A stretch of DNA of 35,758 nucleotides from Candidatus Omnitrophica bacterium UBA2593. Its GTDB lineage: Bacteria; Omnitrophota; Gorgyraeia; Gygaellales; UBA2593. Under the pieces are notes generated by a model. It was not told the DNA's origin. It did no database searches and saw only the letters and a program-made list of their open reading frames with translations. A program made the position numbers and the translations under genes. This document shows positions 1 to 33,000 of this stretch, in pieces. How positions within the stretch are numbered: the first letter of the stretch is position 1; the number at the start of each line of letters is the position of its first letter. The DNA lies in contig DDKR01000153.1 of the NCBI GenBank assembly GCA_002340085.1, positions 1 through 35,758 of the forward strand, written 5' to 3'.

Positions 1-1
1 A

Positions 2-15000: not shown

Positions 15001-18000
15001 TGAAGTATGGGTTCCTTTGGAAAGATTTCAGATTACTTTAGGTGAAGGAGGCAGATTCGGATTTAAACTGAGAGATGTAGGAAGATTAGAGGCTCGACAC
15101 GAGATATTAGGACACTTATTCGCTAAATTTTTAGGCATACCCTTAGGAGAGTCCAGAGATGCAATCTGGGGGTATAATGCTACTGAACAGGTAGCCTTAA
15201 CCCTTACCTCTGTCGATGCTATAGAGTGGGCGAAAAAAGGAAGAAGATTAACTCCTGACCAGATATCCTATATCCATGCAGTTACAAAGATCAGTCCAGT
15301 AACTCGACCTTCAAGATTGAGGTTCTGGTTAGAGAAACGTAAAAATTGGGATAATGAAAAAGATGCTTATATGGATTCGATGCGGTTATTTTATTTTGCC
15401 CAGGCAAAAGGTGATGATTCTCTTGCTGAAATTCTTTCCCATAAACTGTTAAAAGGATTTGGGAAAAAAGTTTCTCGTTTACCTTCACTTTCTTTTATAA
15501 GAGAGTATATTAACAGAAGAACTTCTTTTCTACCTCGACAGGGTTATAAAGCCTTCTCCCAAGGAGCAAAGAATACACTTGGCAAAAATGAAGGTACTAC
15601 ACCTATCGATGGAGAATGGATGAAATTAGAACCTCCTTCTTTGGCAAGATACTACTCTCTAAATTACCTTTCTTCATTCCATCCCCAAAAATCTGAACCT
15701 CCTTCTCTATTAGGTCCAGAAGGAGAAGATTCTCTCTATAAGGATTCTCTCTACTTAAATCAAAAATTAGATGAGATAGTTAAAGAAAAAGGAATTATTG
15801 AAGAAGTACTCAATGATGAAAATTTTAAGAAAAGAGTAAGAGAGAAAGCAGGTTATTATAGCCCCACAACATCAGCCTATTATGTAGAAACAAAAGGCAC
15901 CATCTTATACCGCGAGGGAAGAAATGCTTGGATAAGATTACACGAGATAAAACATGCCTTAGATGACATAGATTCTCCATACGGAAAACCCTCCCAAAAA
16001 CTAATAAATTTTTACCGTGAACTAAAATCCTTTTCTTTTGCTTTTGGACAGGGTGGAGATTTAACCGAAATAGAGGAGTCTTTAAGAAAATACGATAACC
16101 CCTTAGAGGACCTATTAGATTCACTCCTCTGCGAAGGAAAAACAGAGATATTTAGAAAAGACTTGAGTATAATTTTGAGACGTGCTGAAAAAAACCCTTG
16201 GTTTGATCAGATTAAGATCAATGGGTTTAAACAGGAGATGGGTTGGTCGGAAGGGAAATCGTCTTGGTCTATAGAAGAACTAAATAAGCCAGAGATTTTA
16301 AACCTTTTTGACAAGAGCGAGTTTGGTATAGCCACAGAACTCACTGCCTACATGTTCAATGGAGTAATCGAAGGAGATAAGGAGATTATTAAGTTTACTG
16401 ACTTCTTCTTAACCTGGCCTGAAGGACAAAAATTATGGAGAGATCACCTTGAGAAAATTGGCTTAGGTAAGATTGCTCAACTCCACATCGATCAAGTCCA
16501 ACAGAGAAAGAAGAAAGAAACTTCCTCTTCACCTTTTGTTCAATTAGGTATCCTTCAACAAAATCCTACTATAGGTATAGATAAGAATGGTAATGTCTTT
16601 GGTGGTGGTTATCCAGTTTGGGGACCATTTTATAATGAGGTATTAGAGCGATTAGGACAAATAACTCCTAAAATAGATAGGTATAGATCTTCTTCTTCAT
16701 TGTGCGAGGGGAAAAGAGAGAAGATTTTACTTACGGCTTTGGCAGGGATGTCCCCAGAAAATTTTAGAATTAATCCTCAGGATGATAATGATTCGGTGGG
16801 AAGAATTAGCTCTCAAATACCCACATCTGCCTCTCCTGTAGCCTTTAATAGGATTCTTGATTTGTTTGGAAGATATATCAATTCTTTTAAAAATTCTTTA
16901 ACTCTACCTGGCTCTTTAGCTAAGAAGGTGTATGATAGGTATAGGTTGGGTAAAAATAATAATGTAGAGAATATACTGAAGCAAGTTTTTAACAATCAAT
17001 TCTGGAAAGGAAAAGTAGAAATTCCAGAAAATTTACAGCGCCCCATTCTTCCTAATTTTGAATTTACCAAGATAATTCCAAATTTCCAGGAGTTGAAATT
17101 ATTAAATCTTACAGAACAAATAGAACAGATGAACCAAGGATTACTGTCCCTTTTTTCCTCTGTAGAACAAATGAATCAAGGAGTACCGCCTCTTCTCTCT
17201 TTGCGAATAAACCCTGATTCATTAGCGCAAAAAATAGCAGAGCTCAACATAGCAGAACTTAACAGAATAGCAGAGCTCAACATAGCAGAGCTTAACAAAA
17301 TAGCATCGCAAATATCGCAACAGAAGCCTATCTTCTACAGGAATTATATATCTTTTGGAAAATCTCCTGAAGAGAATGATGAAGTTGATTTCTATTCATT
17401 ACTATCTCAAGATAGATATTTTGGTGAAGGGTCCATTATTTCTAAATCCAGCATTCCTAAATTCGAGACTCCCGAAAGACTCAGGTTAAATACTACTAAA
17501 AGACAACTCCTATTTCCTGATTTTTCCTCTGTTACTCTATCAGGTCCTTCTTCTGCACATCATCTCAGTATCTCTGAACCAAAAAGAGGAACTAATTGGG
17601 CAAAGAGGAGCATAATAATAGGTTTACTTTTACTCTCTTTACTCCCTCTGAAAGATACTCCTAATAATAAATCAAACCTTTCGCCTTCTCTACTAATGCC
17701 TCCTTCCGTTGCTGATACCATTAAGCCCGAAGATATTATTTATACTGTTAAACCCGGAGATAGTCTCTGGAAACTTGCTAAGGAGCATTTTGGAGATGGT
17801 AGTGATTGGCGGAAAATTTTAGAGCTCAATCCCCAATTAAACGGTCGCTTAGGTAACCAATTAACACTAACTGGTGAGGAAAGAATAATAATTCAACCTG
17901 AAGAGCCAATTAAAATGCCCTCTCCAATTGGAAAAAGCTCAGTAGGTGTGGCATTTGTTGCCTCCTCTACATACATAGAAGTATCATTTACAGAGCAGTT

Positions 18001-21000
18001 AATGAGATGGATTGGAAAGGTATTATCACTAGTACTTGGCTTTGCTCCATTTCCATTAGGAATTATTCTTCCATCAGTGAAAATGAAAGGGGAGAAGGAA
18101 AGAGGAGTAGAGTTTGTTTCTTCCTTCCTCCCAATCTTTAATGATTCTCTGCTGGTTATTATGCTCGAGGAGGGAGCTAAGAGGGCAGTACTTCCGCTTA
18201 TCACTGAAGCCACCCCTATTGATGGTCTATCTTATCTCTTAATCAATGAAAAGAAAGAGTTTAGAAGAACGCTTACTACCCCCAGATCAACAACAGAAAG
18301 ATTTGAAGGTGTTGCTTTGCCACCTTACTCTATTATTTCAATCCCTGCACTCTTTAATATGGTGGCATTATCTCTTCTGAACTTTATTCCTAAACATAAT
18401 ATCTTAGGCGTCAACAACCTTTCTGGTTTTCTCTTACCAGTATTAACTGCACAGAAGAGAGATCAACGTTCTCTATCAATGGAGCAGCAGCGACTTGGAG
18501 TCTTGGAAATGGCTTTAGGAGCCCTGTTGTTAGCTATGATGAAAGCCTCTTCTTCATTGACTAATAGGCTGCTGGTGGTGATGTTCAATAGAGATAGTTT
18601 GCCGACTCCTCAAGGAGATTCTCAACAGAACCAACGGTCACAACGGCCAATTGGAATGCCACCTACAGGATCATCATCAATAAATGTAGGTGCAGTGGTG
18701 GGGAGTAGGAGTCAATCGACACCAGCACCATCAGAAATTAGTACAAGTCCATTAGATCCCAGTAAATTGGCTCAGATTGAAGATATAATAAACACTCTGC
18801 GATCTTTCATTGGAATGATATTAATGCGTGCTGGACCCATAAGTTCTGCGACAGCGTCATCTTGCGCAGACGCTCAGTCGCAAATAATAGCGCAAAATTT
18901 AGCTGTAATAGCTGTAATAATATTAGCTATATTAGGGAAGTGGAATAGATGTGAAGGAACCGGGAATACCCAAGGTCTGCCTGTAGGTGCAGATAGTCGA
19001 GGTATAACTGGAGATTCCGGAAAGAACTCTAAAAACAGATTCCGAGGTTCCAGTAGTGCGATTTTAGGTGAGCGTATAGCGGATAGCGTAGAGGATAGAG
19101 CAAGTATAAATACGTCTTCATCTCTAAATAATAGACCTCAGAAAGATCTCGCAGGAAACCATAGTTCCCTTAGTCCGCCTATACAGAGAAATGGTTCTCA
19201 AAGCTTAGGTAAATGGTCTAAGTTAATTATTCCTGAACTTGTCAGTGGGTTTAAGCGTCTTATTAATATAATTCTATCCACTCTATCCACAGAACCCCAG
19301 CGCCATTTTTCCAATGTTCTATCTGCGGTGGCAGTTTCAGGATTAAAAGTTAATGAGAACCTATTTCAGGCTACCATTCCTCCAGGAATTTTTGGGGGAG
19401 TCTCTTTAGCTATCCTTGGTTTGTTATTCATAGCAACGCTTGTAGGAATTGCTTATATAATTTTCAGCGCCAAGCCCCCAGCACAAAGTATTGGGGGAAA
19501 TACTTCTCCGCCATCTACTCTGAAAACTCAAGGTGTATATGGATATTCAAGGAATCCTCTATATACACTCTATCTTCTCTTGGCGGCGATTCTTACTATA
19601 TTTGGAATAGATGGTTTTGCTGAAGGGAAAGCTTGGGAAGGAGCCATCCTTATAGGTGTTGCAGTCTTCCTTACTCTTCCTTCTCTATTTTACCTTCCAA
19701 AAGAAGAGGGTGAATTACTATCTAAGTTTGAAGAGGCGTATAAAGAGTATAAAGAAAAAGTTCCACGTTTTGTCTCAACAAAGGTAGCGATTTGCACCTG
19801 CTCCATTTTATTATTCTTACTCTTAGGAACACTTGGTTGGTTAGATAGATGGGTTGATTCCATTGTTGATTTTATTACTCTGACCGTGACATTATCCTTG
19901 TTCACCTTATTCCCGTTATTCCTGCCAAGAATAACCACATCCTCATCTACAAAATTAATGGAGAAGGACTCCAATCAGATTAATGACTCTCCTCGGGCAA
20001 ATTCACCACTTACTATCTCCAACCTTGCCAGAAATTCAGTTCATCATCTAATTTTTCAGTTTAAAAAGATTCTTTTTGTGATTGTGATATCGTTTAAATT
20101 GCTAGTATCCGGCTATAATTTTGCTGTTCCTAATGCATTCTCGTCTCCTCCATCTGTTCCACCCGCTCAAGTACAAGTAGTAGAACAATTTTCTATTTGT
20201 GAGGCTTTAGGAGAGATAAGACAACTTGAAGGAATAGAGGTAGTTTATCTTGATGAAAAGAGGGTTTGGATTTTGATTAAAGAGAAGGGAAATTTAGAAG
20301 AATTAAAGCCAAAGATAGAAACTTTACTTAATAAGACAGGGTTATTCTGGAGAGGAGAAGAAGAAATTAATCCTGTCCCATTCAGATACATCTTTACAGT
20401 ATATCCCAATGTAGAAAAGGAAGAATTAGAGGTAAAGATAAAACCAAGGAATAACACGGTGGTTATTATTCAAGGAGAGTGGGCAGTGACTAGTGCTACT
20501 GATGAAAATTACAAGTTAGCTACTTGGGGTCTTGGTTCGTGTATTGGTGTATTGATATACAATCCTACTACTAAGATTGCGGCCATCACCCATGTTGATT
20601 TCGAAAATGCAGTCTTTTCTACTGTAAAAGAGATGCTTCTTGCAATAAGGACTGAAGGAAAAGATGAGATTCAAATATGGTTCACCGATAATATAGGTGA
20701 AATGGAAAAAACAGTAATCATCAGTCAATATAATTTGGACTATCGAGGTGATTTGCCGCGATCATTCGTGTTTGATACCAGAAACAGCGGACTTAGAAAA
20801 CTTTCAGAAGAGGAGATTAAAAGACTTGCCAACGATGAAACTTTAGATAAAAGACTAGGTCAAATAACCGATAAAAGAATAAAGAATTCAATTACATCTT
20901 GTATAGAAAGGTATGATGGTACTTCGTCTCCAATAACAAAAGGAAGGAGAACTTCTAAATCCAGAGGTCCCCAAAACGAAAGAAATCTTTTGTCCAGCAG

Positions 21001-24000
21001 AGGAGGATCTTCTAGTGCGATTGAGGTTGGGAAGAAAGGGATAGAATCGCTGTTGAATGGTAGAAGCACGCTATTTTCTTATTCTAATGAGCAAAAGAAA
21101 TCTAACCAAAGAAGTTGTTCTCCTCTTCGCGGTCCACCCAAAATTGGTGGAATTGGTAGCCTCGTCTCAACAGTTCTCGCCACCATCCTATTACCCGCAT
21201 TAATACCCCTTGCAATCATTGCTGGATTATCTTCCATTATTTCTGGTCTAATAGTTCAAAAAGGAATAATCAGTCTACCATTTCTCTTTGGGCTCACCGT
21301 GGAAGTCTCAAGAGAGATGGTTTTTGTTGCAAATGGGGTGTCCGTAGGAGTCCTAACCTCCAGGATGGCCCCTTCTACGGACCCCATTGCAACTATTATA
21401 GGAGGTGCATTATGTGTCCTATCAAGTTTGATAAATTACAGTTTGACCATATTGTCGAGTTTACCAATGATAATACTATCTTTGCTGCAGCCCGCCAAAA
21501 CAGTAGTCATAACAGCAATGGCCACCTTAGGCTATTTCTTATTAACCAGTCCACTGGCAATGTTTATTGTCGCAATGGTTGTGCTGATTCTTGGGAACAG
21601 CTTAGAGGCTCTACCCGTGATACCGTTATTGCTCAACTCATCGCTGCTCGCAACAACCATATCCCAGTCTATAGAATTAACGGGGGAGGGCTTCAATCGG
21701 ATTGAAGCCCCTTCTCCAGTTCAACCTGCTCTTGAAACCACCTCCAGTTCGATACAAAAGGGATCCCAGTTGAGTTTGTTTAAGAAAATATCTTCTGTCA
21801 AGAAAGGGAAATCTTATCCTTTTATAATTGCAGTAATACTTCCCATTCTTACATTTTTCCCCATCGTCAATACTTACCAACAATATAAGGTTAGCTATCT
21901 AAGAGATAAGGAGGCAATAGAGAAACTATTAGAGGAGAAATCAGATTTGCTTCATTATTATCATTCACATTTATCTTTTTCTAACATCCGTAGGATTTTG
22001 AAAATATGGATCAATTCTCTTTATCAAAATTCTGAACAAAAGAGAGAATTTCTAAAACATCTTTATAGATGTAAGTCTGTTGAGGAGATCATAGCTAATG
22101 ATAAATTGCCTGCCTTGATAAGGCTTTATGTAGGAGGGTTTATTAAAGGCGATGTATATGGCAACCGCTATCAATTATATCCAATAGCAAAACAACTCTT
22201 AAAGGAGACAGAAGATGAGAATATGTGGAAGTTACTTGCTTATCATAATAAAGTTACATCTCTTGGGAAAGTTACATCTCTTGGGTATAAGAGTATATTG
22301 TGTGATGATATAGTAAGAACTTATAGTCTTGCAGTGTTATTAATAATCGACCAAGAAATTCTAACAATTACAGAAGAAAAATTCCTAACAGCTATGGAAT
22401 ACATAAGATCTGCTCAGGTGTGTGGAGAAGCTCAGTCTTATATAATCAGAGCAAATAGAGAGTTAGTATTTGGAGGCAAAGAAATAGAAAAAGATAGGAA
22501 TATTAAATTCTTCTCAGGAACGATTGCTCATGAGATAGCACATATAATTGCTTATTGGCCCATCGAGGTCAGAGAAGTCGATGAATTCTTCGCAGATTTA
22601 GTTATGTTTGTCTTCTTCGAAAAAATGGGTTGGAAAGAAGATATTTGGATGTCTCAGCAAATGGTAAATTATAAGGAGGCTGTAGAATACGCTAAAGATA
22701 ATGGATGGGTAGTAAATAAGAAAGAACCACATACTATTGCGCGCACACAATTAAAGGTTATAGAAGATGCTATTAGAGAATATGAGGGCGAGGTATCTTG
22801 GGAAGAGATTCTTAAAGCTGCTTTAGATCCACGTTGGACGGATAAAAATCGCAACCGGTCGATAAATAATGGCTTAAATCTTTTCAGAGGTAATTCTATT
22901 GGCGATCTGTTAAACTCGAACTTAAAAAAGAAAATAACAAAGCGAATAGCTCAGTCTTATCCAGAAAAAGACTCTCCTATTTGGATAATAGCTAACCATA
23001 TGCTGGATGAAATCCTGAAAGATAATCACAAAAAGGATAGTATTGGAGAAAGGACAGGATATGGTAAGGTTAGGATTTATCGACCTCGAAGTAGATATAA
23101 AATAACATATAAGCAGGAGAAGGACGCAACAGTAATAATAAAGACAGATAGAGTAACTGGTAGTAAGGTAATTTCCCGCTATCCTACTAAGCCTATTCAA
23201 TACAGGAAGTCAAAGAATAAACCCTTTAGCTCTTCTCCTGTCGATACTTGGGCTATCGCTATAGGTTATGAAGGATTAGCTGGATTGTTTAATGGAATAA
23301 TTGATCTATTAAACCAACTATCTCTCTTATGGCTTGCCGTGGAGGCCTTAGGAGAGATGGTTTTTGTTGCAAATGGGGTGTCCGTAGGAGTCCTAACCTC
23401 CAGGATGGCCCCTCCTACGGACCCCATTGCAATTGGAGGAGGTGCATTATGTGTTCTATCAAGTTTGATAAATTACAGTTTGACCATATTGTCGAGTTTA
23501 CTAATGATAATACCATCTTTGCTGCTGCTCGGCAAAATGGTGGGTATAACGGAAACGGGCATCTCAGACTATTTCTTATTAATCAATCCACTGGCAATGT
23601 TTATTGTCGCAATGGTTGTGCTGATTCTTGGGAGCAACTCACTGGTTCTACCCGTGATACCGTTATTGCTCATCTCATCGCTGCGAAGAACAACCACATC
23701 CCTGTCTACAGGATTAATGGAAAGAGCCAGCAGTAGTCTACAGACCCAATCTACTTCTTCGCCACTGCACATTTTAGTCTTTGGCCCAGAACATTTAGCC
23801 CCGCAAATAAAACGCAAGATTAAAGAGAGATTTAAACAGATTGAGATTACCACCGTCGGAAATTATAATAGCTTTTTAGTAGACTTCGGTAAAAATAGAT
23901 TTCAGTTACTTATTATCGACGGTGTTACATTAAGTGTTACATTAAGTGAAAAAGGAGAAGTATGGGAGGAACTCGAAAGATTAATTAAAAAAGTAGTTGA

Positions 24001-27000
24001 GAAAAAGAGCAGACCAAGGATTATTATTCTATGTAGTAAAGATCTTGAACAGAAGATAGAGAAACTTAAGGAAGAGCATTCTTTAAAGATTGTATTTGTG
24101 GAGGACTATCCAGCGGGGAGCAATGTAAAAGGGTTTCTTGAAAGAATAAGAGAAGAACTGCACTTAAAAAAAGTAAGTTCACCACTGGTTAAGAATGTTT
24201 CTATTCCGATAGATGTGCGGTTAACTAAGGAGAATAGAAGGGATAGAATAGAAGCAATTATGGGCTCGCTGGGAGGATCAATTTTAAGTTTAAGTTTTCT
24301 TTACCTTCCGTGGCCGGTGGTGAGAGGATTTTTCTTCTCAGCGGGCCTAAGAAAATATCTTGCTCTATTCACTAGGAGTCCATCTCTTACATTCGCTTGT
24401 TTAATAACTGCTTCCATCTTCCTCACTTCAATCATATTCTTAGTTCTCAATTCTCAACTATTAACTGGACTTTTAACCCCGCCACCTATCTTAAGAGCTA
24501 CCGTGGCAGTTGTCTTAGGATTGATGGCTTTTGTTGTAATTTGGGAGAGGTTGGCAGTCCTAAACCTCCAGGAGACGGCCCCTGTCAACCTCCCTATTAC
24601 AACTAATACAGGAGGTAAAGAAGGAATTCAAACTGAGACTCCCAATCTTATTACCTCCAATCATGCTACTTTATCAATTAAGTCTATTATCTCCAGTCCA
24701 GTGGCTTCGCCGCTCATTACCTCCAGCCCTACCATGACAGCCTATACTTTAAGAAAGGCAAATAATTTAAGGGAGGAAGATTCACCACTCACCACCCCCA
24801 ACCTTACCATTTCCAGCTCTGTTACCTCATTTGAGGAATTTCTTGCTGGTATAAAGAAGTTAGAGGAGTGTCTGAAGGTTTTAGAGGAGTATTTAAAAGG
24901 AGCCCTTATTCCTACTATAGAAAAGACTACGAGAGAGATAGTAGATATTTTCAATAATCCCTCCTTTAAAAAGACATTAAGCAAATTTTTAAACGAGGAA
25001 ATCACCCATGAAATAAAGGCTGACTTGACTATAGTATGTGGGTATTGCCAGTTACAGGCATCAGAAGAAGAGAAAGAGCGTTCTATAGAAAAGCTCAATT
25101 CAATAAAAGCGCGCTTGATTGAAGTTAAAATAAAAGAAATTCTTTCACATTTTTCTTCTAGAATGGGATGGAGTGTTTTGATTTTGGCAGAGAATACCCA
25201 GAGATTAGAAGAACTTAAGGCGACATTCTCAAAATTAGGTGAATCAGAGTTAGTAAGTAAGACAGAAGAAATAATAAGAATTTGTAGACAAGAAGTCACC
25301 CTTCAACAGAAAAGCGAGTCTTACCTCGAGGCTACAGAGATAATTAACTCCATCCAAGATAAGCTTTCACCCGAAGGAAGTCAAATTGAACCCTCCACAG
25401 CTCAGACAACTTCACCACTCAAGATTGCTTTTAGTCCAATGGGTTTGTTGTCAGTTAGAGTCAAAAGAGATATAATAGGAGCAATTGTGGGTCTGCTGGG
25501 AGGAATTTTAGGTTTTTTCTACCTCACGTGGCTGGTGGGGAGAAAATCTATCTTTCCAGCGGGCCTAGAAAAATATCTTGCTTTACTTATTCACAGTCCA
25601 CCTCTTACATTCAGCTGTTTAGTAGCTACTTTCATCCTTCTTAACTCAATAAACTCAATAGATCTATCTCTAATCCCATCCTCAATCTCCAATCCTCAAT
25701 TATTAATTGGATTCTTAACCCGGCCACCTATCTTAAGAGCTACCGTGACAGTTGTCTTAGGATTGATGGCTTTTGTTGTAATTTGGGAGAGGTTGGTAGC
25801 CTTAACCTCCAGGATGGCCCCTGCCAACCTCCCTATTACAACTGATGGAGGAGACAAAATTTCTTATTATTCCTTGAGGAATACTGTAGAGAGAGAGCTT
25901 AAAGAGAAAAGGCTTGATTGGTATTTTATCTTCAGGAGGATTAAAGACCAAGGTTTTTCAGCTGCTTCGCCTATCAGGATAAAGAATGTGGTAATAATAG
26001 GAGTTCTAATAGTAGCATCACTTTTTGGGTTGTTAAAGTGCAGGGATTTTTTAAGAAAGCAGGATGAAATGCTTGAGGCAATGGAGATTCTTCGGGAAGG
26101 AAGAGAATCCACTTTTGGTCCGAGTTTTGGCGTGCTTTCACCAGAAGCCTTAAAAGAATTGATAAACTCCAAAACCTCTTATTCTCATCCAAGGTCGGTT
26201 ATGGAGTTGGTAGATAAATTGGCTTCTCTCTTTGGTGTATCTCCTACTGATGAACAAAGGTATGATTGTTTACTGAAGATTCAGACGATGGAAGGAAAAA
26301 TCAACGGATACAAAGGTTATATTTCAGAATTAGAAAGACGCTTTGGTTTACCTTCTGGGATAATGGGTGCAATTATAAGAGCAGAGATGTTTGGCTTAGC
26401 ACCTTTTGAAGAATTCACTGATTCTATAGGAGGGGTACTTACAGGAAAGACTTCTATAGGTCCTACTCAGGTGAGGATAGATACTGTGCGGATGTTATAT
26501 CCAGAGTACAGAAAAGCTTCTAACTTCAGGATTACTCAACTTCTTCAGGATGATAAATTTGCCCTTGAAGCAGGAGCAAAATATATACAGTGGTTAGTTA
26601 AAAAGATGGGGTTAGATCTTAAGAATTCTGGAGATCGGTTAAGGCTTTGGGTTGCTTATACAGCAGGACATCAATCACCGGCTTTTAAAGAAATCAGAAA
26701 ACCTCCATTTAGAAGAAATTTTAAAAAGGAAGATTGGGTTGCCAATGAAGCATGGGCTTATGCCTATGTAGCGGAAGCATTTTGCCGATACTTATCTACA
26801 CGGGCTTCTTCTGAGGCCTCTTCATCTTCTGTGGCTGATGAGAAGAAATCTGTTTTCTTAAAAGGATGTCGTGCAGTTAGAATCACCAGTTTAGCATCAG
26901 CAATTTCATTTTTAGGAACAATTCCTTTATTTACTCCTTTGGTGTCTTTTGCTACGGTATTGGCGGTGGGGATAGCTGTTTATTATGGGATGAAGAAGAT

Positions 27001-30000
27001 TGTTGGGTTTGTTAAGGTTGGTTTGGTCTTTAATCCTCAGCAAAACTCAAGGAAAGATGAGCTTGACGAGACTGGAGTTGGAGCTGAGATTAAAGAATTA
27101 ATTGATAAGTTTGGGAGAGTGTTGGAGGAAGTTCTAATAGGGAGAGGAGATAAATATTCTGAAGATATTTTTGCTGAGCAGTCTGAGGTAGCTTTATTGG
27201 TTCAGTCTACAAAGCAAGTAGTAGAGATTGCTTGTTCTAAAGGTAAGACATATATCTTAGCTTTAGCAGCTCTAATCAAATACCGTACAACGGGTATTCC
27301 TTCCTTGGCCTTTGTTCCTGCTTTTGGTTTAGGTTTAGATGCCTTTGAGAAACACAGGATACATCAGATATTAGGTAAGGTTGATCCTAATTTTAAGGTG
27401 GGTTTGGTAGATTTTGCTGAGGGAAAGGGTAAAATCTATGATGGGGATGGCGAATGGAGAGAAGTTAGTATAGCTGAAGTTTATAGCAAGTGTGGTTTGG
27501 TCTATAGTACAGTAGAAGATACAGTGCATAATTATTTAAGCGAGCATCTATCCCGAGAAGATAGAGACTTAGCTTTAATTACTCGCAAATGGTGGGTATT
27601 CTTTGATGAAGTGCATTTGACTTTGTTGGGTGAGCGCTTAGGAAACCCATTTGTTATCTCTGAGATGACCAAGCAATATTCAGAAGTTGTAGAAGAAGCC
27701 AATGATATAGCAAGAGAACTTTATGAGTTAGTGGAAAAAAATGGGGCTCTTCTGAAGAGCGAATATCATAGGATAGATGAGAAGGATAGGAAGGTAAAAC
27801 TTACTAGAATAGGAAGTAAATTTGTAAAAGAAAGACTTAAAAAGACAAAGTTATTGAGAAATCGGGGTAATTGGAAAGACTTTGTAGATACTGCCTTATG
27901 TGCTTGGTTCTGTTATAAAGAAGGTAGAGATTATCTTCATAATCCTGGTTTACCAGAGGGAGAAGAGATTTCCATCATTAGAGAGAGTGGAGAGAGAGGA
28001 AAAGAATCTTACAGCCATGGTTTACATCAGGCAATTCGTGCTAAACACGGCTATAACCCATTCAGAGATGGAAAGACTATTGCCTCAATTATGTTAATGG
28101 GTTTCCTAAGTGATCTGGAAGTGGTAGAAGGTTACTCAGGAGTGAGCGGGACCATAGATAGAGAAATGGCAAATGCTTTAGGATTAGGGGTTCAGATTAT
28201 TGAAGAAAAAGAGAAGCCAAATATCGTTCAAGAAGGATTTATTCGGATGTCAGTAAAACCAGATATTCAAGGATTGGTAGAGATTGTAGTAGAAAAAGTT
28301 AAGAGAGGACAGCCGGTTTTAATAAGGGTAGAAGATATTTCTCGGGTTGAAAAGGTAAAGGAAGCTTTAAAGGTAGAAGGCCTGGAGATAGAAGTGAAGA
28401 GTTTAGATGCCAGGACTGAAGCTGGTGAGAGACAGAGAATCCTTGAGAGTGCAGGTAAACCAGGAGCAGTTACTGTTGTTACTGCTGCGGGCAATACAGG
28501 TATAGATATCAGTCTTATGGAAGAAGCGATTGAGAAAGGCGGTTTGACAGTTATAGCGTTTGGCCTCTTGGAAGACAGATTGCAAGAGATACAACTGATG
28601 CGACGGGCAGCAAGGAGGGGAGAACCGGGAGAGTTTATTGTTTTCGGTTCACTTGAAGATAGAGTAGTAAGGCTTTATGCTAAGGATTATATCCCGGTGG
28701 CTAAAGGAATTTTAGAGAGAGCAGCAAAAGGTGATAGAAAAGCTCAGATTAAAGTTAGAAAAGTGGTTATGCAATTGCGTAAGACAATTAAAGATGCGAG
28801 ACTTCAACAGATCAGAAGGAGAGTTAAGATAGAGCAAATGATTACCCAAGCTTGGCAGAGGCGTTGTAATTTGAGAGAGAACATTAAGAATGGTTTGCTG
28901 GTAGAGGCTGTGGCGAAACTGATCGGTGTAGAGTTGAATGAGGAGAAGAAAGAGCAATATCAACAAGCAGCTTTAGAATTACTAGATAGGTATTGGGTTG
29001 AGTTTATTGCACGGTGCGATGAAGCAAGATATCAGCTGCTCAATAGATTTGGTTATGATTACACAGAGTGTCAAGGTATTCTGCAATTTCCAGTTGATTC
29101 GCAGTATATGAAAGAGGTAGGTAGATACACCGACGAGTTTATGTATTATACAGAAGCTAATACTTTCCTCTATATGTTGAAAGAAGCAGGAAAGAGTTTA
29201 GATGATTTGAATCTTAAGAGATCCTTCATTTACTGGTTTAAGAGAGTAAGGAATTTTGTTGTCCAAAAAAGTCCAGTTGTTATAGCTGCTGTAATTTTAT
29301 CCTTTGTAGTCTATGGGTTATACCGTCTGAGTTTTGGTTTATTTGGGCTTATCTCAACTCCTACACAACCCTCTGGTTTTGCCCGGGTTTTGATTGATTT
29401 TATTGTTAGTCTGTCTGCTCTTAATCAGGTATCATTGGTTGCAATCATAGTGATTGCGATGGTCTTTCTCTTATTCATTAATCGCAACCTTATCTTTCCG
29501 GCTTTAGCTAAAGACAGAAGCGAAAACTCGTTATCCGATGCTCTGTTTGGAATAAAGACAGAAAACCAGAATTTGACTTCATTCTCCCTCGCAGTTTACA
29601 AGAAGGTCTATCCAGTTATTGCACAGATTAGTACAGGAGTATCTCTAGTTATATTCGGCTTGTCTATTTTCACTGGTAGTAATTTGCTACTGAGTACAGT
29701 AGCATTTATCTCTATCTTCGCTTTAGGACTAGCTTTAATTACTTTGAGTGATTCAGGGTTAAAGGCATATATAAGACAAAATAGGATTTCTCTGCCATCT
29801 ACCTTGTTTGGGAGTTACGCTTACTATTTTGCTTTTAGTATCTTGGTTTATCTGGGAGTAATCTTTGGATTAGGTTATTTTGGCATTACTCCTGTGGTTA
29901 TGGATATGAGTATCTATTTGAGTATAGTTATCTTAGGGGGTGGGCTCCTTGCTTATTTCATCTATATGATGAATCAGTATTTGGATAGACGGTTTAATGA

Positions 30001-33000
30001 TAAACCCAAGGAAGTAGAACGAGATGTCGCTTTTGCTGGCATATTAGGAAGTGGTGCTTTGGCGGGCTTACTTATACATCTCCAAGAGATGGAATTACTT
30101 ACCCCTAATACTATTTCTACTATTTACGCTTCAATTTGGCCGGCGGTTCAGTTAACTGTAATATTAATGTTTCCACTCGCCTTGGTTGTTTTAGGTAAAC
30201 TTATTTTTGGTATTACGCGTGCTCAGATGTTGGGTGAAAAGATAGTAGAAAATGACGGTGTGGTTTTGAAGAGAGGTTTTTCGGAGAGTGTAAGGGAAGT
30301 CTTAAGATTAAAGCATATCAAGACTTGTATTGGTGTGGTTTTACGGGCGTTGATAATAAACATTATTCCTACCAGTATTATTTTTGGTGGTCTGCTTTTC
30401 TTATGGAAGATCTATACTGATACAAATATCGCCTTGGGGCTATTAAATACAATTACTCCTTACTCTTTAATAATAGCAGGAGTTGTTTTGATTATAATTT
30501 TAGCAACTTTAGCATTTAGTCCTAAAAAGGTAAGTGTAGCAACTGGTACAGTGTTAGGTGTGGGTGCAGTAGGGGGTATGACTATGGTTCAACAACAGAC
30601 AGGGCAAATGATCGAATTTAAAGCCTATTGTGCTGAACTCTTCGGAATTTCTAGAGAAGAATTTAAAGATCCGCGGGTAAGGATAGCCGTAGAAGAAATG
30701 AGAAAAGAGATAGAAAGATTAAAATCAGCCACTAATGATTCTTCTAAGTCCGGAAGAACTACTACAGCTGGAGGTACGCAAGGTAATCAGACTACAAATG
30801 ATCCAGATAAGACTGAATCATCTAAAGTTAACTTACAAGAGCCTCCAAGAGGGGGAAAGATTGAACCACTGAAAGAAGGTCCAGGTAATACCTTCTCAAA
30901 AGAAAATCCTCACAATAAATCTCCACCAAAATCTCAAAGTAAATCCTTCCTACAAAAACTCACTTCTTCTCTCAAAGAGAGTTTGAATTCTTTGAGTAAT
31001 CTTTTCATACCTTCTCTTAATGCTGAAGAAATAGATAACTTCCACAGCACCAGAGTTTATACTGAGAATACCACCCCAGGAGTGGAAAGAGAAGATTGTC
31101 TTTCTTTACAAGAGCCAGTTAAATGGCATCTTCCAATTAAAGTTCCTTATACTCTAACCAATGAAGGTAAATTTGGTGCTTCCAGAGATAGAGATGAACT
31201 TAGTGAACCAGGTTACGGTAAGCCAGATGAGATACCTCATACTGGCCTTGACTTCTGTGTTCCAAAAGGAACGCCTATATATGCAGCTTTAGAAGGCGTG
31301 GTTATCTTTAGCGGTGAACTTAATGGCTATGGAAAGACAATAATCATCAAGCATTCAGAGGGATGTTATACCTTATATGCTCATAATCAGGAAAATTTAG
31401 CTAGAGAAGGAGAGAAAGTCTCTCAGGAGACAGTGATTGCTAAAGTCGGCCGGAGTGGTAATGCGGGACAAGTTGGAGAGATGCTTCATTTTGAAGTAAT
31501 AGAGTCAGAGGTTGAGCTAAGTAATTATCAGGGATTAAGAGAGACATTGGCTACGGGAAAAGCAAAATATCGCAATCCTGAGGAGGTATTGGGATTGACT
31601 ATTTCTGATCGGGTAGTGGAAAATGGTGATTTAACCTCAACATTAGAAGAAAAAGCGGAAAGCTTGAGGGAACTTTTGAATTCAGGAATAGAATATTACA
31701 ATCAAGGAGATTTTAAGACTGCTATAACGATTTTCAGTGAAGGCATTAATTTAAACCCTTCCTTCTCTGAGGGGTATTTTTGGCGAGGAGCTACTTATTA
31801 TCATTTAAAGCAGTATTATGAAATGATAGAGGATTTTAAAAGATCTGAAGAGGTTAAAGAGACCAAACGGGAAATAGTATCTTCTTACACAAAAGGAGAA
31901 ATTCTTATATATAATAGTGGTAGAGTTCTTGAGGGAGGAGATCTCCAAATCAAATCAGAAGAGTTATTTTCGAACTATTTATTTTCGAGTGTTTTAATTG
32001 AAGATGCTAAAAAATGGATAGAGAGACTAGAATCAGCTCGTCTTCAAAGTAATATTTCTAAACCAGAGGAGAAAGAAGGGCCGGTTATTTTCGTATTGGA
32101 TAAAGGTGTGAATGCAGATCTTGTTGGGGGTTCAATTAAAGGTATAGGGAATAAAGGAGATTTAATAACCTGGTTAAGTCATGGCACTTTTGTAGCAAAG
32201 GTTATTCGTGATCTGTCTTCAGCTGAGATTATATCTATTGACATAACGAGACAATCAAAGACAGGCCCCCTTTTCGTTACAGATACAAAGAAGATTTCCC
32301 AATCTCTGATTCAGATACTCGCCTATATGAAAGAGAATCCCAGGGTAAAGGTAATAGTAAATATTTCTTTCAGTGGATCTTTTGGAGACTTCAATGATCT
32401 TTTAGATGTAGTCTTAATGCAAGCTATTATCCAACAAGGTGGAGTTATTGTTGCAGGCGCAGGGAATGAGGGCACTTCTTTATCTCGAATATCCAGGTAT
32501 CCTGTTTGTTATCCGGGTGTTATTGGGGTAGGCGCGATTAAAAAATCAGGAAACAAGGCCGATTATAGCAATTGGTCTAATGGCCTTCTCGTTGCTCCTG
32601 GGTGGATTAATGGGAGTGAGGAATGGAAAAATTTAACCAAAGAAGAGTACGGATGCGATATTGAAGAAATATATGGTACTTCCTTTAGTGCTCCTTATGT
32701 TGCTGGTCTAATTGCTAAGATATGCGAAGAATTTGGGTTCACACCTCAGCAGGCATATAAGATTATTGAAGAGACTGCAGAGCCTTTAAAAGTTTTTGAT
32801 AATTCCCCGAATTATTTCTTGAAAAAAGTTGATCCTTTCCGAGCATTAAAAAGAGCAAGAGAAGAGAAATATTCCAAACCCGCATTGGAAAGGGTCGGAT
32901 CATTATTTAATTTTCTCTTTCCACCACCTCTTTATGCTACAGGAGTAGATAATTCAACTACTACAGAACAACCTAATCTTAATTTCAAACCCGTATCGGA

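What the first reader, a model, noticed from the sequence alone, without database searches (positions are those of the whole stretch)
21326..25842. Four copies of a 68-71-nt intragenic hairpin with covarying arms and a conserved loop: candidate structured RNA element
The elements lie at 21326-21393, 23366-23433, 24533-24603 and 25775-25842, and all fold the same way: outer stem, middle stem, inner stem, then a 21-24-nt loop.
- Arm sequences differ between copies 1/2 and copies 3/4, yet complementarity is kept.
- The outer stem is GUUGCAA(A)U/AUUGCAAC versus GUUGUAAU/AUUACAAC, a C-G to U-A double change.
- The middle stem is GGG/CCC versus GGGAG/CUCCC.
- The inner stem is GUCCGUAGGAG/CUYCUACGGAC versus GUUGGYAG/CUGYCAAC.
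- Single differences within a pair toggle only between Watson-Crick and wobble pairs (U21374 versus C23414 opposite G; G.U/C-G in copy 3 versus G-C/U.G in copy 4).
- The loop core CCUAACCUCCAGGAUGGCCC is conserved at the nucleotide level.
- In copies 1/2 the ~90 nt around the hairpin carry one substitution, although the adjacent ORF has diverged at roughly a quarter of its codons.

Covariation with a conserved loop is the classical hallmark of a functional RNA (or single-stranded DNA) structure, here embedded in coding sequence.
Basis: seen in the sequence. Interest (0 to 1): 0.85.

Follow-up and report, generated by a model that had tools for sequence, protein, structure and literature searches.

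The report
Structured RNA leader of a hidden nested gene
The four hairpins are real, evolutionarily conserved RNA structures inside a giant bacterial gene. They belong to a two-hairpin element that sits just in front of a small, previously unannotated gene encoded in a different reading frame within that giant gene.

Summary
All four hairpins exist at the stated coordinates and fold well (z -4.5 to -5.9). A covariance model built only from other genomes finds exactly these four, on the + strand.

The context changes the picture:
- The whole 35.7-kb window is one stop-free ORF, an Omnitrophota-type giant gene with SecA-like and LysM domains.
- Each hairpin ("M") is the 3' half of a larger element: UUAACC, a second covarying hairpin ("U", GUGGCA loop), hairpin M (CCUCC apical loop, UGACCCC bulge), and an A/U-rich linker.
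- Copies 1 and 2 then carry AGGAGGUG, 6 nt and an AUG that opens a 95-97-aa ORF in the -1 frame. Substitutions between these copies show selection on that nested frame (24 synonymous : 11 non-synonymous, versus 3:31 in the giant frame).
- The small protein has about 190 relatives. In 77 of 77 distinct loci the giant frame stays open across it (0.4 expected).
- Across 89 distinct hairpins, 96.7% of cells pair and 21 of 21 pairs show compensatory changes. The loop is conserved as nucleotides in different reading phases.

Most likely this is an RNA-level leader controlling internal translation of the nested gene. The mechanism is inferred, not shown. It has no Rfam match and is not mentioned in the Omnitrophota papers I searched.

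The parts
1..35758 (+). Host: a single giant ORF (codon starts at positions = 2 mod 3). It is stop-free across the whole window, at least 11,919 aa, and runs off both ends.
   Evidence: One search finds 0 stops in this frame against 457-1107 in the others. One search finds LysM and SecA-like (P-loop, preprotein cross-linking, DEAD) domains. SecA-like domains are described as common in Omnitrophota giant proteins (10.1101/2023.11.21.568195).
21277..21321 (+). Hairpin U of unit A1 (loop GUGGAA, a variant of the family's GUGGCA). The UUAACC motif is missing here.
   Evidence: fold. It differs from the A2 copy at 10 positions yet still folds.
21326..21393 (+). Hairpin M of unit A1 (finding copy 1): GUUGC/GCAAC base, long stem, CCUCC apical loop, UGGCCCC bulge.
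   Evidence: MFE -34.2, z -5.3. (R1 43.3 bits, E 1.4e-10).
21400..21405 (+). Shine-Dalgarno AGGAGG(UG) of nested gene A1, 6 nt before the AUG.
21412..21705 (+). Nested gene A1: 97 aa in the -1 frame relative to the giant ORF (positions = 1 mod 3), AUG to UGA.
   Evidence: translation. (32 of 44 substitutions versus A2 fall at its third codon positions; 24 synonymous: 11 non-synonymous). (35 homologues, E down to 1.7e-37). (HMM E 1e-48).
23309..23314 (+). UUAAAC motif (family consensus UUAACC) upstream of hairpin U of unit A2.
23316..23362 (+). Hairpin U of unit A2 (loop GUGGAG).
23366..23433 (+). Hairpin M of unit A2 (finding copy 2).
   Evidence: -35.8, z -5.9. (38.4 bits).
23437..23442 (+). 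Shine-Dalgarno AGGAGG(UG) of nested gene A2, 6 nt before the AUG.
23449..23736 (+). Nested gene A2: 95 aa in the -1 frame, AUG to UAG.
   Evidence: HMM E 1.6e-49.
24473..24478 (+). UUAACC motif of solo unit B3.
24481..24528 (+). Hairpin U of solo unit B3 (loop GUGGCA).
24533..24603 (+). Hairpin M of solo unit B3 (finding copy 3). It is followed by AGGAGG (24610-24615) but no start codon or ORF.
   Evidence: -30.4, z -4.5. (30.7 bits). (no nested ORF or remnant downstream).
25715..25720 (+). UUAACC motif of solo unit B4.
25722..25771 (+). Hairpin U of solo unit B4 (loop GUGACA).
25775..25842 (+). Hairpin M of solo unit B4 (finding copy 4). It is followed by GGAGGAG but no ORF.
   Evidence: -30.7, z -4.9. 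(26.7 bits)..
19876..19971 (+). Decayed remnant of a third nested-gene copy (C-terminal ~30 codons, ...AKNNHILIYKINGEGLQSD*) in the same -1 frame. Stops lie upstream and no hairpin was detected.
   Evidence: HMM positions 62-89, E 7e-4. (translation; the tail matches A1's GGGLQSD*).

Best explanation
The four hairpins are the downstream halves of a conserved mRNA element about 130-150 nt long. The element lies inside, and is translated as part of, an Omnitrophota-type giant gene.

**Layout.** The element reads: A/U-rich run, UUAACC, hairpin U (GUGGCA loop), hairpin M (apical CCUCC loop plus a 3' UGACCCC bulge), then an A/U-rich linker. In full units this is followed by a very strong ribosome-binding site (AGGAGGUGU, 6 nt, AUG). 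That site starts a ~91-aa gene written in the -1 frame inside the giant ORF. The window holds two full units (copies 1 and 2) and two solo units that have lost or never had the gene (copies 3 and 4).

**Shown:**
- the structures covary on the sense strand;
- the loops are conserved as nucleotides irrespective of reading phase;
- the nested gene is under purifying selection and has its own start;
- the giant frame is actively kept open across it.

**Inferred mechanism.** The element is the leader that governs internal initiation of the nested gene.
- Hairpin M displays an anti-Shine-Dalgarno mimic, (A)CCUCC, that can pair 5-7 bp with the GGAGGU(G) about 45 nt downstream.
- The two stable hairpins would hold the site closed or shielded until a ribosome translating the giant frame melts them.
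- The small protein would then be made in step with, and next to, the nascent giant protein (translational coupling).
- The protein carries one weakly FG-GAP/VCBS-like propeller-blade repeat. Its role is unknown.
For: **Structure**
- all four hairpins fold well.
- a model built from other genomes finds only these four in 35.7 kb.
- 96 sense-strand hits across 87 other loci.
- 96.7% of cells paired, 21 of 21 pairs with compensatory changes, 0 of 500 shuffles as high.
- the sense strand is more stable than the antisense strand (p = 8e-10).
- the loop is read in 2 phases, and lengths step by 3.

**Nested gene**
- substitution periodicity and 24:11 synonymous: non-synonymous, versus 3:31 in the giant frame.
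- a family of about 190 representatives, almost all 85-105 aa.
- the gene always lies at -1 inside an ORF that is open over the fetched locus.
- 77 of 77 distinct copies keep the giant frame open, against 0.4 expected.
- 71% pyrimidine at the nested gene's third positions.
- an in-frame stop lies within 140 nt upstream in 62 of 81 loci, so the gene must initiate on its own.

**Link between hairpin and gene**
- 73 of 91 distinct M hairpins are followed directly by a family ORF.
- the SD is AGGAGGUGU with a 6-nt spacer in 60 of 73 loci.
- the linker is A/U-rich, modally 7 nt.
- these are the only strong-SD alternate-frame ORFs in the window.

Loop-SD complementarity is read directly from the sequences.
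Against: - Solo units lack the ORF yet remain conserved. B3 and B4 differ by about 4% over U+M against about 24% in the flanking coding sequence, with wobble-toggling changes. Tandem extra units occur in L012, L016, L031, L044, L093 and others, and most solo units have no GGAGG after them. So the hairpins have some role, or persistence, independent of an adjacent start site.
- In about 9 loci, 33-97 nt of other hairpins are inserted between M and the SD. That argues against a strict loop-SD pseudoknot geometry.
- The SD is only moderately paired in ordinary secondary-structure ensembles (mean unpaired probability 0.42). Pseudoknots could not be modelled.
- CCUCC and GGAGG are both nearly invariant, so their pairing cannot be tested by covariation.
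- Hairpin U, UUAACC and the UGACCCC bulge have no assigned role in this model.
- The loci were fetched through the small protein, so the 73-of-91 association is biased upward.
- There are no expression data.
Confidence: 0.5

Rival explanations
1. The element defines or protects a sub-transcript. The giant mRNA would be cleaved, or an internal promoter would fire, in the A/U-rich UUAACC region. Hairpins U and M would then sit at the 5' end of a shorter mRNA, shielding it from 5'-end-dependent decay, while the A/U-rich linker and strong SD drive translation of the nested gene (an ompA-5'UTR-like design). Solo units would be general stabilisers, or barriers to RNase scanning, in a very long mRNA.
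For: - Conservation begins abruptly at an A/U-rich run plus an invariant UUAACC just 5' of hairpin U.
- The layout is two stable hairpins, then an A/U-rich linker, then a strong RBS.
- This model explains solo and tandem units that have no ORF.
Against: - No conserved -35 or -10 pattern lies upstream.
- There is no evidence of cleavage.
- It does not explain why the apical loop is specifically an anti-SD mimic.
- Giant-frame continuity is strictly preserved through the element, so the RNA is also read intact.
Confidence: 0.2
2. The element is a docking site for a trans-acting factor, either a protein (possibly the nested protein itself, as autoregulation) or an RNA. The factor would recognise the conserved single-stranded motifs (GUGGCA, CCUCC, UGACCCC, UUAACC) displayed on stems of arbitrary sequence.
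For: - Invariant loops and bulges on freely covarying stems are typical of protein-binding hairpins.
- All four window copies share a genome-specific variant, AGGAUGGCCCC instead of AGGGAYUGACCCC. The five L012 copies likewise share one variant. Both patterns fit co-evolution with a trans factor.
- The window protein also departs from the family consensus (YCRNGC versus YTRNGR).
Against: - The protein has no detectable RNA-binding fold. There is no PDB match, and only a weak FG-GAP-like repeat.
- Shared variants could equally reflect recent common descent or gene conversion.
- No formal co-variation test was run.
Confidence: 0.15
3. The element is a selfish in-frame palindromic repeat (like Rickettsia palindromic elements or MITE/REP-type repeats), with or without its small ORF as cargo. 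It would spread within giant genes and be tolerated because it keeps the frame.
For: - It is multi-copy per genome, and tandem arrays occur.
- Metagenome contigs often break right at the element.
- Lengths step by 3.
- A decayed copy lies in the window.
- Other small palindromes are inserted next to it in some loci.
Against: - Every independent hit is in the sense orientation of a giant ORF. The 3 antisense hits among 99 are mirror images of the same palindromes.
- Copies differ by compensatory substitutions in the stems while loops stay fixed across a phylum. That indicates long-term purifying selection on structure rather than copy-and-paste.
- There is an RNA-specific strand asymmetry.
- No terminal inverted repeats or target duplications were seen at the A1/A2 repeat boundaries.
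- None were found in viral contigs.
- No transposase-like protein is present.
Confidence: 0.07
4. The hairpins stimulate programmed -1 ribosomal frameshifting. They would push giant-frame ribosomes into the -1 frame, either fusing the small domain to the giant protein or causing termination followed by re-initiation at the nested AUG.
For: - The nested frame is exactly -1 relative to the giant frame in every locus.
- A subset of loci has A_AAU_UUA in the correct phase 6-8 nt before hairpin U.
- In the window the -1 frame happens to be open from 21157 and from 23302.
Against: - The heptamer is not conserved and is absent from the window units.
- 62 of 81 loci have a -1-frame stop within 140 nt before the AUG.
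- The AUG, SD and 6-nt spacing are near-invariant, which a frameshift fusion would not need.
Confidence: 0.05
5. The similarity is protein-level only: a repeated peptide motif of the giant protein whose DNA happens to be palindromic.
For: Some host-frame residues recur (S/T-V-A-G, L-T-P, T-T, G-G).
Against: - The host frame reads the hairpin in different phases, giving unrelated peptides.
- Stems covary with no amino-acid conservation.
- Synonymous GGA/GGU choices covary with the opposite arm of hairpin U: U-A in 30 copies and A-U in 16.
Confidence: 0.02

Closest known systems
comS nested out of frame inside srfAB (surfactin synthetase) of Bacillus subtilis (from my own knowledge of the literature)
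   Same: A small protein-coding gene with its own start lies wholly inside a very large gene, in another reading frame on the same strand. Both frames are functional.
   Different: - Here the host is a 12,000+ aa Omnitrophota giant protein.
- The arrangement is conserved across a phylum in many diverged copies.
- There can be several copies per host gene.
- The nested gene is far better conserved than its host.
- It carries a dedicated two-hairpin structured leader.
Translational coupling through RNA structure: the IncB/IncI-alpha repA/repZ leader-peptide pseudoknot, and the MS2 coat-lysis/replicase hairpins (from my own knowledge)
   Same: A hairpin upstream of an RBS has a loop that can pair with RBS-proximal sequence. 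Translation of the overlapping upstream frame would remodel the structure and switch on the downstream start.
   Different: - No sequence similarity.
- The loop here is a direct anti-SD mimic.
- The upstream 'leader' is a giant ORF that continues through and beyond the nested gene.
- The coupling is inferred only.
Stabilising 5' stem-loops such as the ompA 5' UTR (from my own knowledge)
   Same: Two stable hairpins are followed by an A/U-rich segment and a strong RBS.
   Different: The element is inside coding sequence and is itself translated in the host frame. No 5' end has been mapped.
Rickettsia palindromic elements (in-frame palindromic insertions in ORFs; from my own knowledge)
   Same: Palindromic units occur inside protein-coding genes and preserve the reading frame.
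   Different: - The orientation here is strictly sense.
- Loops are conserved while stems change by compensatory substitution.
- The element is tied to a downstream RBS and gene.
Rfam release 15 families
   Same: None.
   Different: No match at gathering thresholds over the whole window. At E <= 10 over 21200-21760 the only matches were three far-sub-threshold chance hits: two miRNA-precursor families on the unrelated hairpin at 21682-21717, and PYLIS_4 at 21252-21332 with 16 bits against a gathering score of 50.

Membership tests
Nested (overprinted) same-strand gene | A complete ORF lies inside a larger ORF in another frame. | tested here: met
   (window). (-1 frame inside an ORF open over the fetched locus in about 80 of 88 loci).
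Nested (overprinted) same-strand gene | Purifying selection acts on the nested frame. | tested here: met
   (32 of 44 substitutions at its third positions; 24 synonymous: 11 non-synonymous versus 3:31). (a conserved family).
Nested (overprinted) same-strand gene | The host frame is maintained across the overlap. | tested here: met
   (77 of 77 open against 0.4 expected under synonymous resampling). (pyrimidine-rich third positions).
Nested (overprinted) same-strand gene | The nested gene has its own translation start and an expressed product. | not testable with these tools
   The SD AGGAGGUGU, 6-nt spacer and AUG are near-invariant, and upstream in-frame stops are present. There are no expression data.
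Structured cis-acting RNA element | Base pairs are maintained by compensatory substitutions in independent sequences. | tested here: met
   (21 of 21 pairs, 424 cells; the alignment is fitted to the model). (MAFFT-only alignments also show double changes).
Structured cis-acting RNA element | There is a strand-specific (RNA) signature. | tested here: met
   (the sense strand is more stable in 69 of 87 copies; 8% G.U). (every independent hit is on the sense strand).
RBS-sequestering / translational-coupling structure | The SD or start codon is paired by the structure, and opened by upstream translation. | tested here: inconclusive
   Loop (A)CCUCC is complementary to GGAGGU. The SD unpaired probability is 0.42 without pseudoknots. 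Linker insertions occur in some loci. No covariation test is possible.
-1 programmed frameshift cassette | A slippery X_XXY_YYZ heptamer lies in the 0 frame 5-9 nt before the structure. | tested here: not met
   A_AAU_UUA occurs only in a subset and is absent from the window units.
-1 programmed frameshift cassette | The -1 frame is open from the shift site into the downstream product. | tested here: not met
   (a stop within 140 nt upstream of the AUG in 62 of 81 loci).
Integron attC site | RYYYAAC (R'') at the 5' end and GTTRRRY (R') at the 3' end of the hairpin. | tested here: not met
   The order is reversed here: GTTGT at the 5' end and ACAAC at the 3' end on either strand. A neighbouring intI was not searched for.
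Bacterial SECIS | An in-frame UGA lies immediately 5' of the hairpin. | tested here: not met
   The giant frame has no stop. The conserved UGA of the bulge is out of frame in 72 of 79 copies (xUG ACC).
Mobile palindromic repeat (RPE / MITE / REP) | Near-identical copies occur in both orientations and in unrelated contexts, with TIR or TSD. | tested here: not met
   Only loci fetched through the small protein, plus the window, were examined.
FG-GAP / VCBS propeller repeat (the nested protein) | A match to the Pfam model at its gathering score. | tested here: not met
   (no Pfam hit at E <= 1). There is only indirect similarity: profile hits to multi-repeat FG-GAP proteins and hhalign probability 33%, E 4.6e-4.
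Omnitrophota giant gene (the host) | An ORF over 20-30 kb with many TM segments and SecA DEAD / preprotein-binding domains. | tested here: met
   Features as described in 10.1101/2023.11.21.568195 and PMC10066038. Relatives come almost all from Ca. Omnitrophota MAGs.

The most novel reading that the evidence does not exclude
The U+M element may be a new class of intra-ORF RNA device: a bacterial internal ribosome-entry or processing platform, possibly a self-processing or factor-guided cleavage site. It would turn a giant mRNA into a scaffold that launches translation of a partner protein at defined points. The small propeller-blade protein would then be made next to, and assemble co-translationally with, the emerging giant protein. 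On this reading, many 'transmembrane-like' segments of Omnitrophota giant proteins would be by-products of out-of-frame reading of nested genes.
Probability: 0.2. Interest if true: 0.9.

Novelty: new variant of a known kind. Interest (0 to 1): 0.8.

Why it matters
- **Giant-gene biology.** Omnitrophota giant genes are among the longest known, and how they are expressed is an open question. Earlier work found no Rfam RNA domains inside them and took this to suggest single mRNAs (PMC10066038).
- **First conserved internal signal.** This is, to my knowledge, the first conserved internal RNA structure and internal translation unit seen in these genes. The nested gene is far better conserved than its host, which points to an important function.
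- **Annotation blind spot.** Gene callers report the small protein only where a contig end truncates the giant ORF.
- **Topology predictions.** L/S/T/A-rich, hydrophobic stretches of giant proteins can be passive read-through of a nested gene. That affects predictions of their membrane topology.
- **Testable system.** The element offers a clean case of dual coding plus RNA-structure constraint on the same nucleotides.

Tried and rejected
- **Rfam.** Searched at gathering thresholds and at E <= 10. Nothing relevant.
- **Small-protein annotation.** Pfam, PHROGs and NCBIfam found nothing. A PDB sequence-profile search and Foldseek with the AF2 model (pLDDT 84) gave no significant match.
- **Viral contigs.** No relatives.
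- **Exact-sequence look-up of the window protein.** Not on record.
- **MAFFT alignment of all hairpins.** It put the variable stems out of register, so RNAalifold recovered only 10 pairs. I solved this by seeding a model with one length class.
- **Ungapped pairing score for hairpin U.** Barely above the control (12.4 versus 10.8), because of bulges. RNAfold and a length-class alignment show the helix.
- **Internal promoter.** No conserved -35 or -10 pattern.
- **Self-BLAST of the whole giant protein.** It returned only the identity hit. A chunked search worked.
- **Host-gene homology around the element.** Mostly undetectable between loci.
- **Tertiary pairings** among UUAACC, GUGGCA, CCUCC, UGACCCC and the start region. 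By eye, nothing convincing. GGUUAA at MVK-type starts complements UUAACC, but UUAACC is present regardless of the start type.
- **Families considered and rejected.** attC, SECIS, sigma-54 promoter, HUH/IS200 ends, CsrA-type sites, and hammerhead or other ribozyme cores.

Full report
**1.

As RNA each folds into one long hairpin on the + strand, with MFE -30.4 to -35.8 kcal/mol and z -4.5 to -5.9. None of 200 dinucleotide shuffles folded as well. The 21-nt loop core occurs three times with at most 1 mismatch, against 0.00 expected. Copy 3 differs by small insertions. The arm differences between copies 1/2 and 3/4, and the Watson-Crick/wobble toggles within each pair, are as described.

**2. The context is a giant gene with a second gene inside it**

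- The + frame with codon starts at positions = 2 (mod 3) has no stop codon in all 35,758 bases. The other five frames have 457-1107 stops.
- The translation is at least 11,919 aa. It has many hydrophobic segments, a LysM domain and SecA-like P-loop, preprotein-binding and DEAD domains. SecA-like domains are reported as common in Omnitrophota giant proteins.
- Immediately after hairpins 1 and 2 come AGGAGGUG, 6 nt and AUG (21412 and 23449). These open ORFs of 97 and 95 aa in the -1 frame.
- Between the two copies, 32 of 44 substitutions fall on the third codon position of that -1 frame.
- Codon changes are 24 synonymous: 11 non-synonymous in the -1 frame, and 3:31 in the giant frame. Selection therefore acts on the nested ORF.

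**3. The nested gene is a real, widespread, unannotated family**

- A word-indexed search found 35 homologues of 89-99 aa at 55-75% identity, with no Pfam domain.
- An exhaustive profile search found 188 cluster representatives, nearly all 85-105 aa.
- I fetched 43 loci from GTDB genomes, almost all labelled Candidatus Omnitrophota, and 46 from metagenomes.
- In about 80 of 88 loci, the frame at +1 relative to the small ORF is open across the whole fetched locus, up to 6.2 kb. The small ORF is therefore always at -1 inside a very long ORF.
- All 77 distinct nested ORFs leave the giant frame stop-free. Resampling synonymous codons with each locus's own usage predicts 0.4 of 77.
- The means is visible in the codon usage. 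Third positions of the nested gene are 71% pyrimidine, against 51% in the flanks. This forbids stops in the host frame and forces an L/S/T/A-rich host peptide.
- The nested frame has a stop within 140 nt upstream of its AUG in 62 of 81 loci. The SD is AGGAGGUGU with a 6-nt spacer in 60 of 73 loci. The gene must therefore initiate on its own.
- Databases hold the family mostly on short contigs. In the two contexts I inspected, the contig end cuts the giant ORF just upstream. The window's own copy is not on record. This is an annotation blind spot.
- The AF2 model is confident (pLDDT 84): five strands, a helix and a final strand. It has no PDB match.
- The only lead on function is a weak resemblance of residues ~20-66 to one FG-GAP/VCBS propeller-blade repeat.

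**4. The hairpin is a conserved RNA structure**

- Upstream of the nested start, most loci have a hairpin with the same plan but unrelated stem sequences.
- The plan is a GUUGU/ACAAC base, a 17-20-bp variable stem, a 3' bulge A-Y-UGACCC(C), a short covarying apical stem (CCCU/AGGG, CGCC/GGCG, CACC/GGUG) and an apical CCUCC loop.
- Model R1, seeded with 14 hairpins from other genomes, finds the four window copies and no other site.
- Across the window and 87 other loci, R1 gives 99 hits. Of these, 96 are on the sense strand and 3 are mirror images of the same palindromes.
- On the resulting alignment, 96.7% of cells pair, against 74% in shuffles and 50-75% when partners are slid. All 21 pairs show double changes, in 424 cells. 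That alignment is fitted to the model, but MAFFT-only alignments show the same trend.
- The sense strand folds better than the antisense strand in 69 of 87 copies (p = 8e-10), and 8% of pairs are G.U. This points to RNA.
- Hairpin lengths step by three (62, 65, 68, 71, 74, 77).
- The host frame reads CCUCC in two phases (55 versus 23 copies), giving unrelated peptides. The loop is therefore conserved as nucleotides.

**5.

- Two to five nt upstream of hairpin M lies a second hairpin, U. It has a GCCGC/GCGGC base, a variable middle stem, an apical YWCC/GGWR stem and a GUGGCA loop. Its lengths are 38, 41, 44, 47 or 50 nt.
- Hairpin U is preceded by a near-invariant UUAACC and an A/U-rich run.
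- A synonymous GGA/GGU choice on one arm covaries with UCC/ACC on the other: U-A in 30 copies and A-U in 16.
- All four window units have hairpin U, at 21277-21321, 23316-23362, 24481-24528 and 25722-25771.
- The A1 and A2 copies of U differ at 10 positions yet both fold.
- After M comes an A/U-rich linker, modally 7 nt, and then the SD.

**6. Hairpins with and without the gene**

- Of 91 distinct M hairpins, 73 are followed directly by a family ORF. The other 18 are solo, mostly extra tandem units just upstream. The sample is biased, because the loci were fetched through the protein.
- In the window, copies 3 and 4 are solo. AGGAGG or GGAGGAG persists, but there is no start codon, ORF or remnant.
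- Even so, U+M differ by only about 4% between copies 3 and 4, against about 24% in the adjacent coding sequence, whose substitutions show no codon periodicity (23/19/15).
- A decayed C-terminal remnant of a third nested copy lies at 19876-19971 in the same -1 frame. Units are evidently gained and lost.

**7. Mechanism**

What is shown is a sense-strand RNA structure with conserved single-stranded motifs. It is translated through in the host frame and sits immediately 5' of the strong RBS of a conserved nested gene.

My best inference (confidence about 0.5) is a leader that controls internal initiation:
- The (A)CCUCC apical loop mimics the 16S anti-SD and can pair 5-7 bp with GGAGGU(G).
- Ribosomes on the giant frame must melt both hairpins just before they reach the RBS.
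- Nested-gene translation could thereby be coupled to giant-gene translation, and the small protein would be made beside the nascent giant chain.

Several observations count against this being the whole story:
- Solo units are conserved.
- Some loci have insertions in the linker.
- Predicted SD pairing is only moderate.
- U, UUAACC and UGACCCC have no assigned role.

The rivals, with my confidence in each:
- a processing, stability or 5'-end element (0.2);
- a docking site for a trans factor, hinted at by genome-specific loop variants (0.15);
- an in-frame selfish palindrome (0.07);
- a -1 frameshift stimulator (0.05; its defining features were tested and not met);
- a purely protein-level repeat (0.02; refuted by the phase analysis).

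**8. Comparison and novelty**

- There is no Rfam family.
- The two Omnitrophota giant-gene papers do not contain the words nested, hairpin or frameshift.
- The Omnitrophota survey reports finding no catalytic RNA domains in giant ORFs and does not mention hairpins.
- Keyword searches found nothing on nested genes in this phylum.
- The closest known things are, from my own knowledge, comS inside srfAB (a nested gene in a very large gene) and translational-coupling structures (IncB repA pseudoknot, MS2). They resemble this in kind, not in sequence.
- I therefore class the element as a new variant of a known kind: a new structured-RNA family joined to a new nested-gene family, conserved across a phylum inside its giant genes.

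Noticed in passing
window 19876-19971 (+, -1 frame): A decayed remnant of a third nested-gene copy (...DIILVHLIPVIPAKNNHILIYKINGEGLQSD**). The tail matches A1's GGGLQSD*. Stops lie upstream and no hairpin was detected. The host frame here reads as a hydrophobic 'TM-like' segment.
   Followed up: partly
window 21682-21717: A perfect 10-bp hairpin, GGGCTTCAAT-CGG-ATTGAAGCCC, overlaps the stop codon (UGA 21703-21705) of nested gene A1. It is absent from copy A2. It drew only spurious sub-threshold miRNA hits in Rfam.
   Followed up: no
L037:2893-2990, L038:888-975, L048, L086, L054, L070, L046 (between hairpin M and the SD): Other palindromic units (for example GGGACACCC...GGGTGTCCC, or GAGACACCCCGCGC...GCGCGGGTGTT) are inserted in frame between hairpin M and the SD in several loci. 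They may be a separate family of small in-frame palindromic insertions.
   Followed up: no
L016:2738-2999, L063, L032: A second, divergent nested ORF (MCRNFRDL...IPVYRTNRFLY*) sits between hairpin M and the main nested gene, giving two nested paralogues in tandem. The second has its own SD directly after the first one's stop.
   Followed up: partly
L012:2425-2910: A tandem array of about 185-nt units, each with one U and two M hairpins and with near-identical loops, lies upstream of the nested gene at 72% GC.
   Followed up: partly
window 27.4-28.7 kb; L002-L006 ~7.4-8.1 kb; L045 ~2.1-3.0 kb: SecA-like domains of the giant protein lie 1-7 kb downstream of the nested gene in the few loci where host homology is detectable. 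Otherwise the host protein is too divergent to align, so the nested gene is much better conserved than its host.
   Followed up: partly
window 21326-25842 versus the family: All four window hairpins share a genome-specific loop/bulge variant, AGGAUGGCCCC, instead of the family's AGGGAYUGACCCC. The window's nested proteins have YCRNGC where the family has YTRNGR. This may be co-evolution or simply shared descent.
   Followed up: no
L001-L007, and most family members: The small protein is recorded in databases mostly on short contigs. In the two contexts I inspected (L001-L007), the contig begins within or just upstream of the element, which suggests assemblies break at these repeats. Gene callers seem to report the nested gene only when the giant ORF is truncated.
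   Followed up: partly
window 22258-22293 and 23921-23946: Short in-frame tandem duplications sit inside the giant ORF: AAAGTTACATCTCTTGGG twice, and GTTACATTAAGT twice.
   Followed up: no
subset of loci (e.g. L041, L080, L082, L038, L078, L046), ~6-8 nt before hairpin U: A_AAU_UUA, a canonical -1 slippery heptamer in the correct host-frame phase, precedes UUAACC in a subset of related loci. It is not conserved across the family and is absent from the window.
   Followed up: partly
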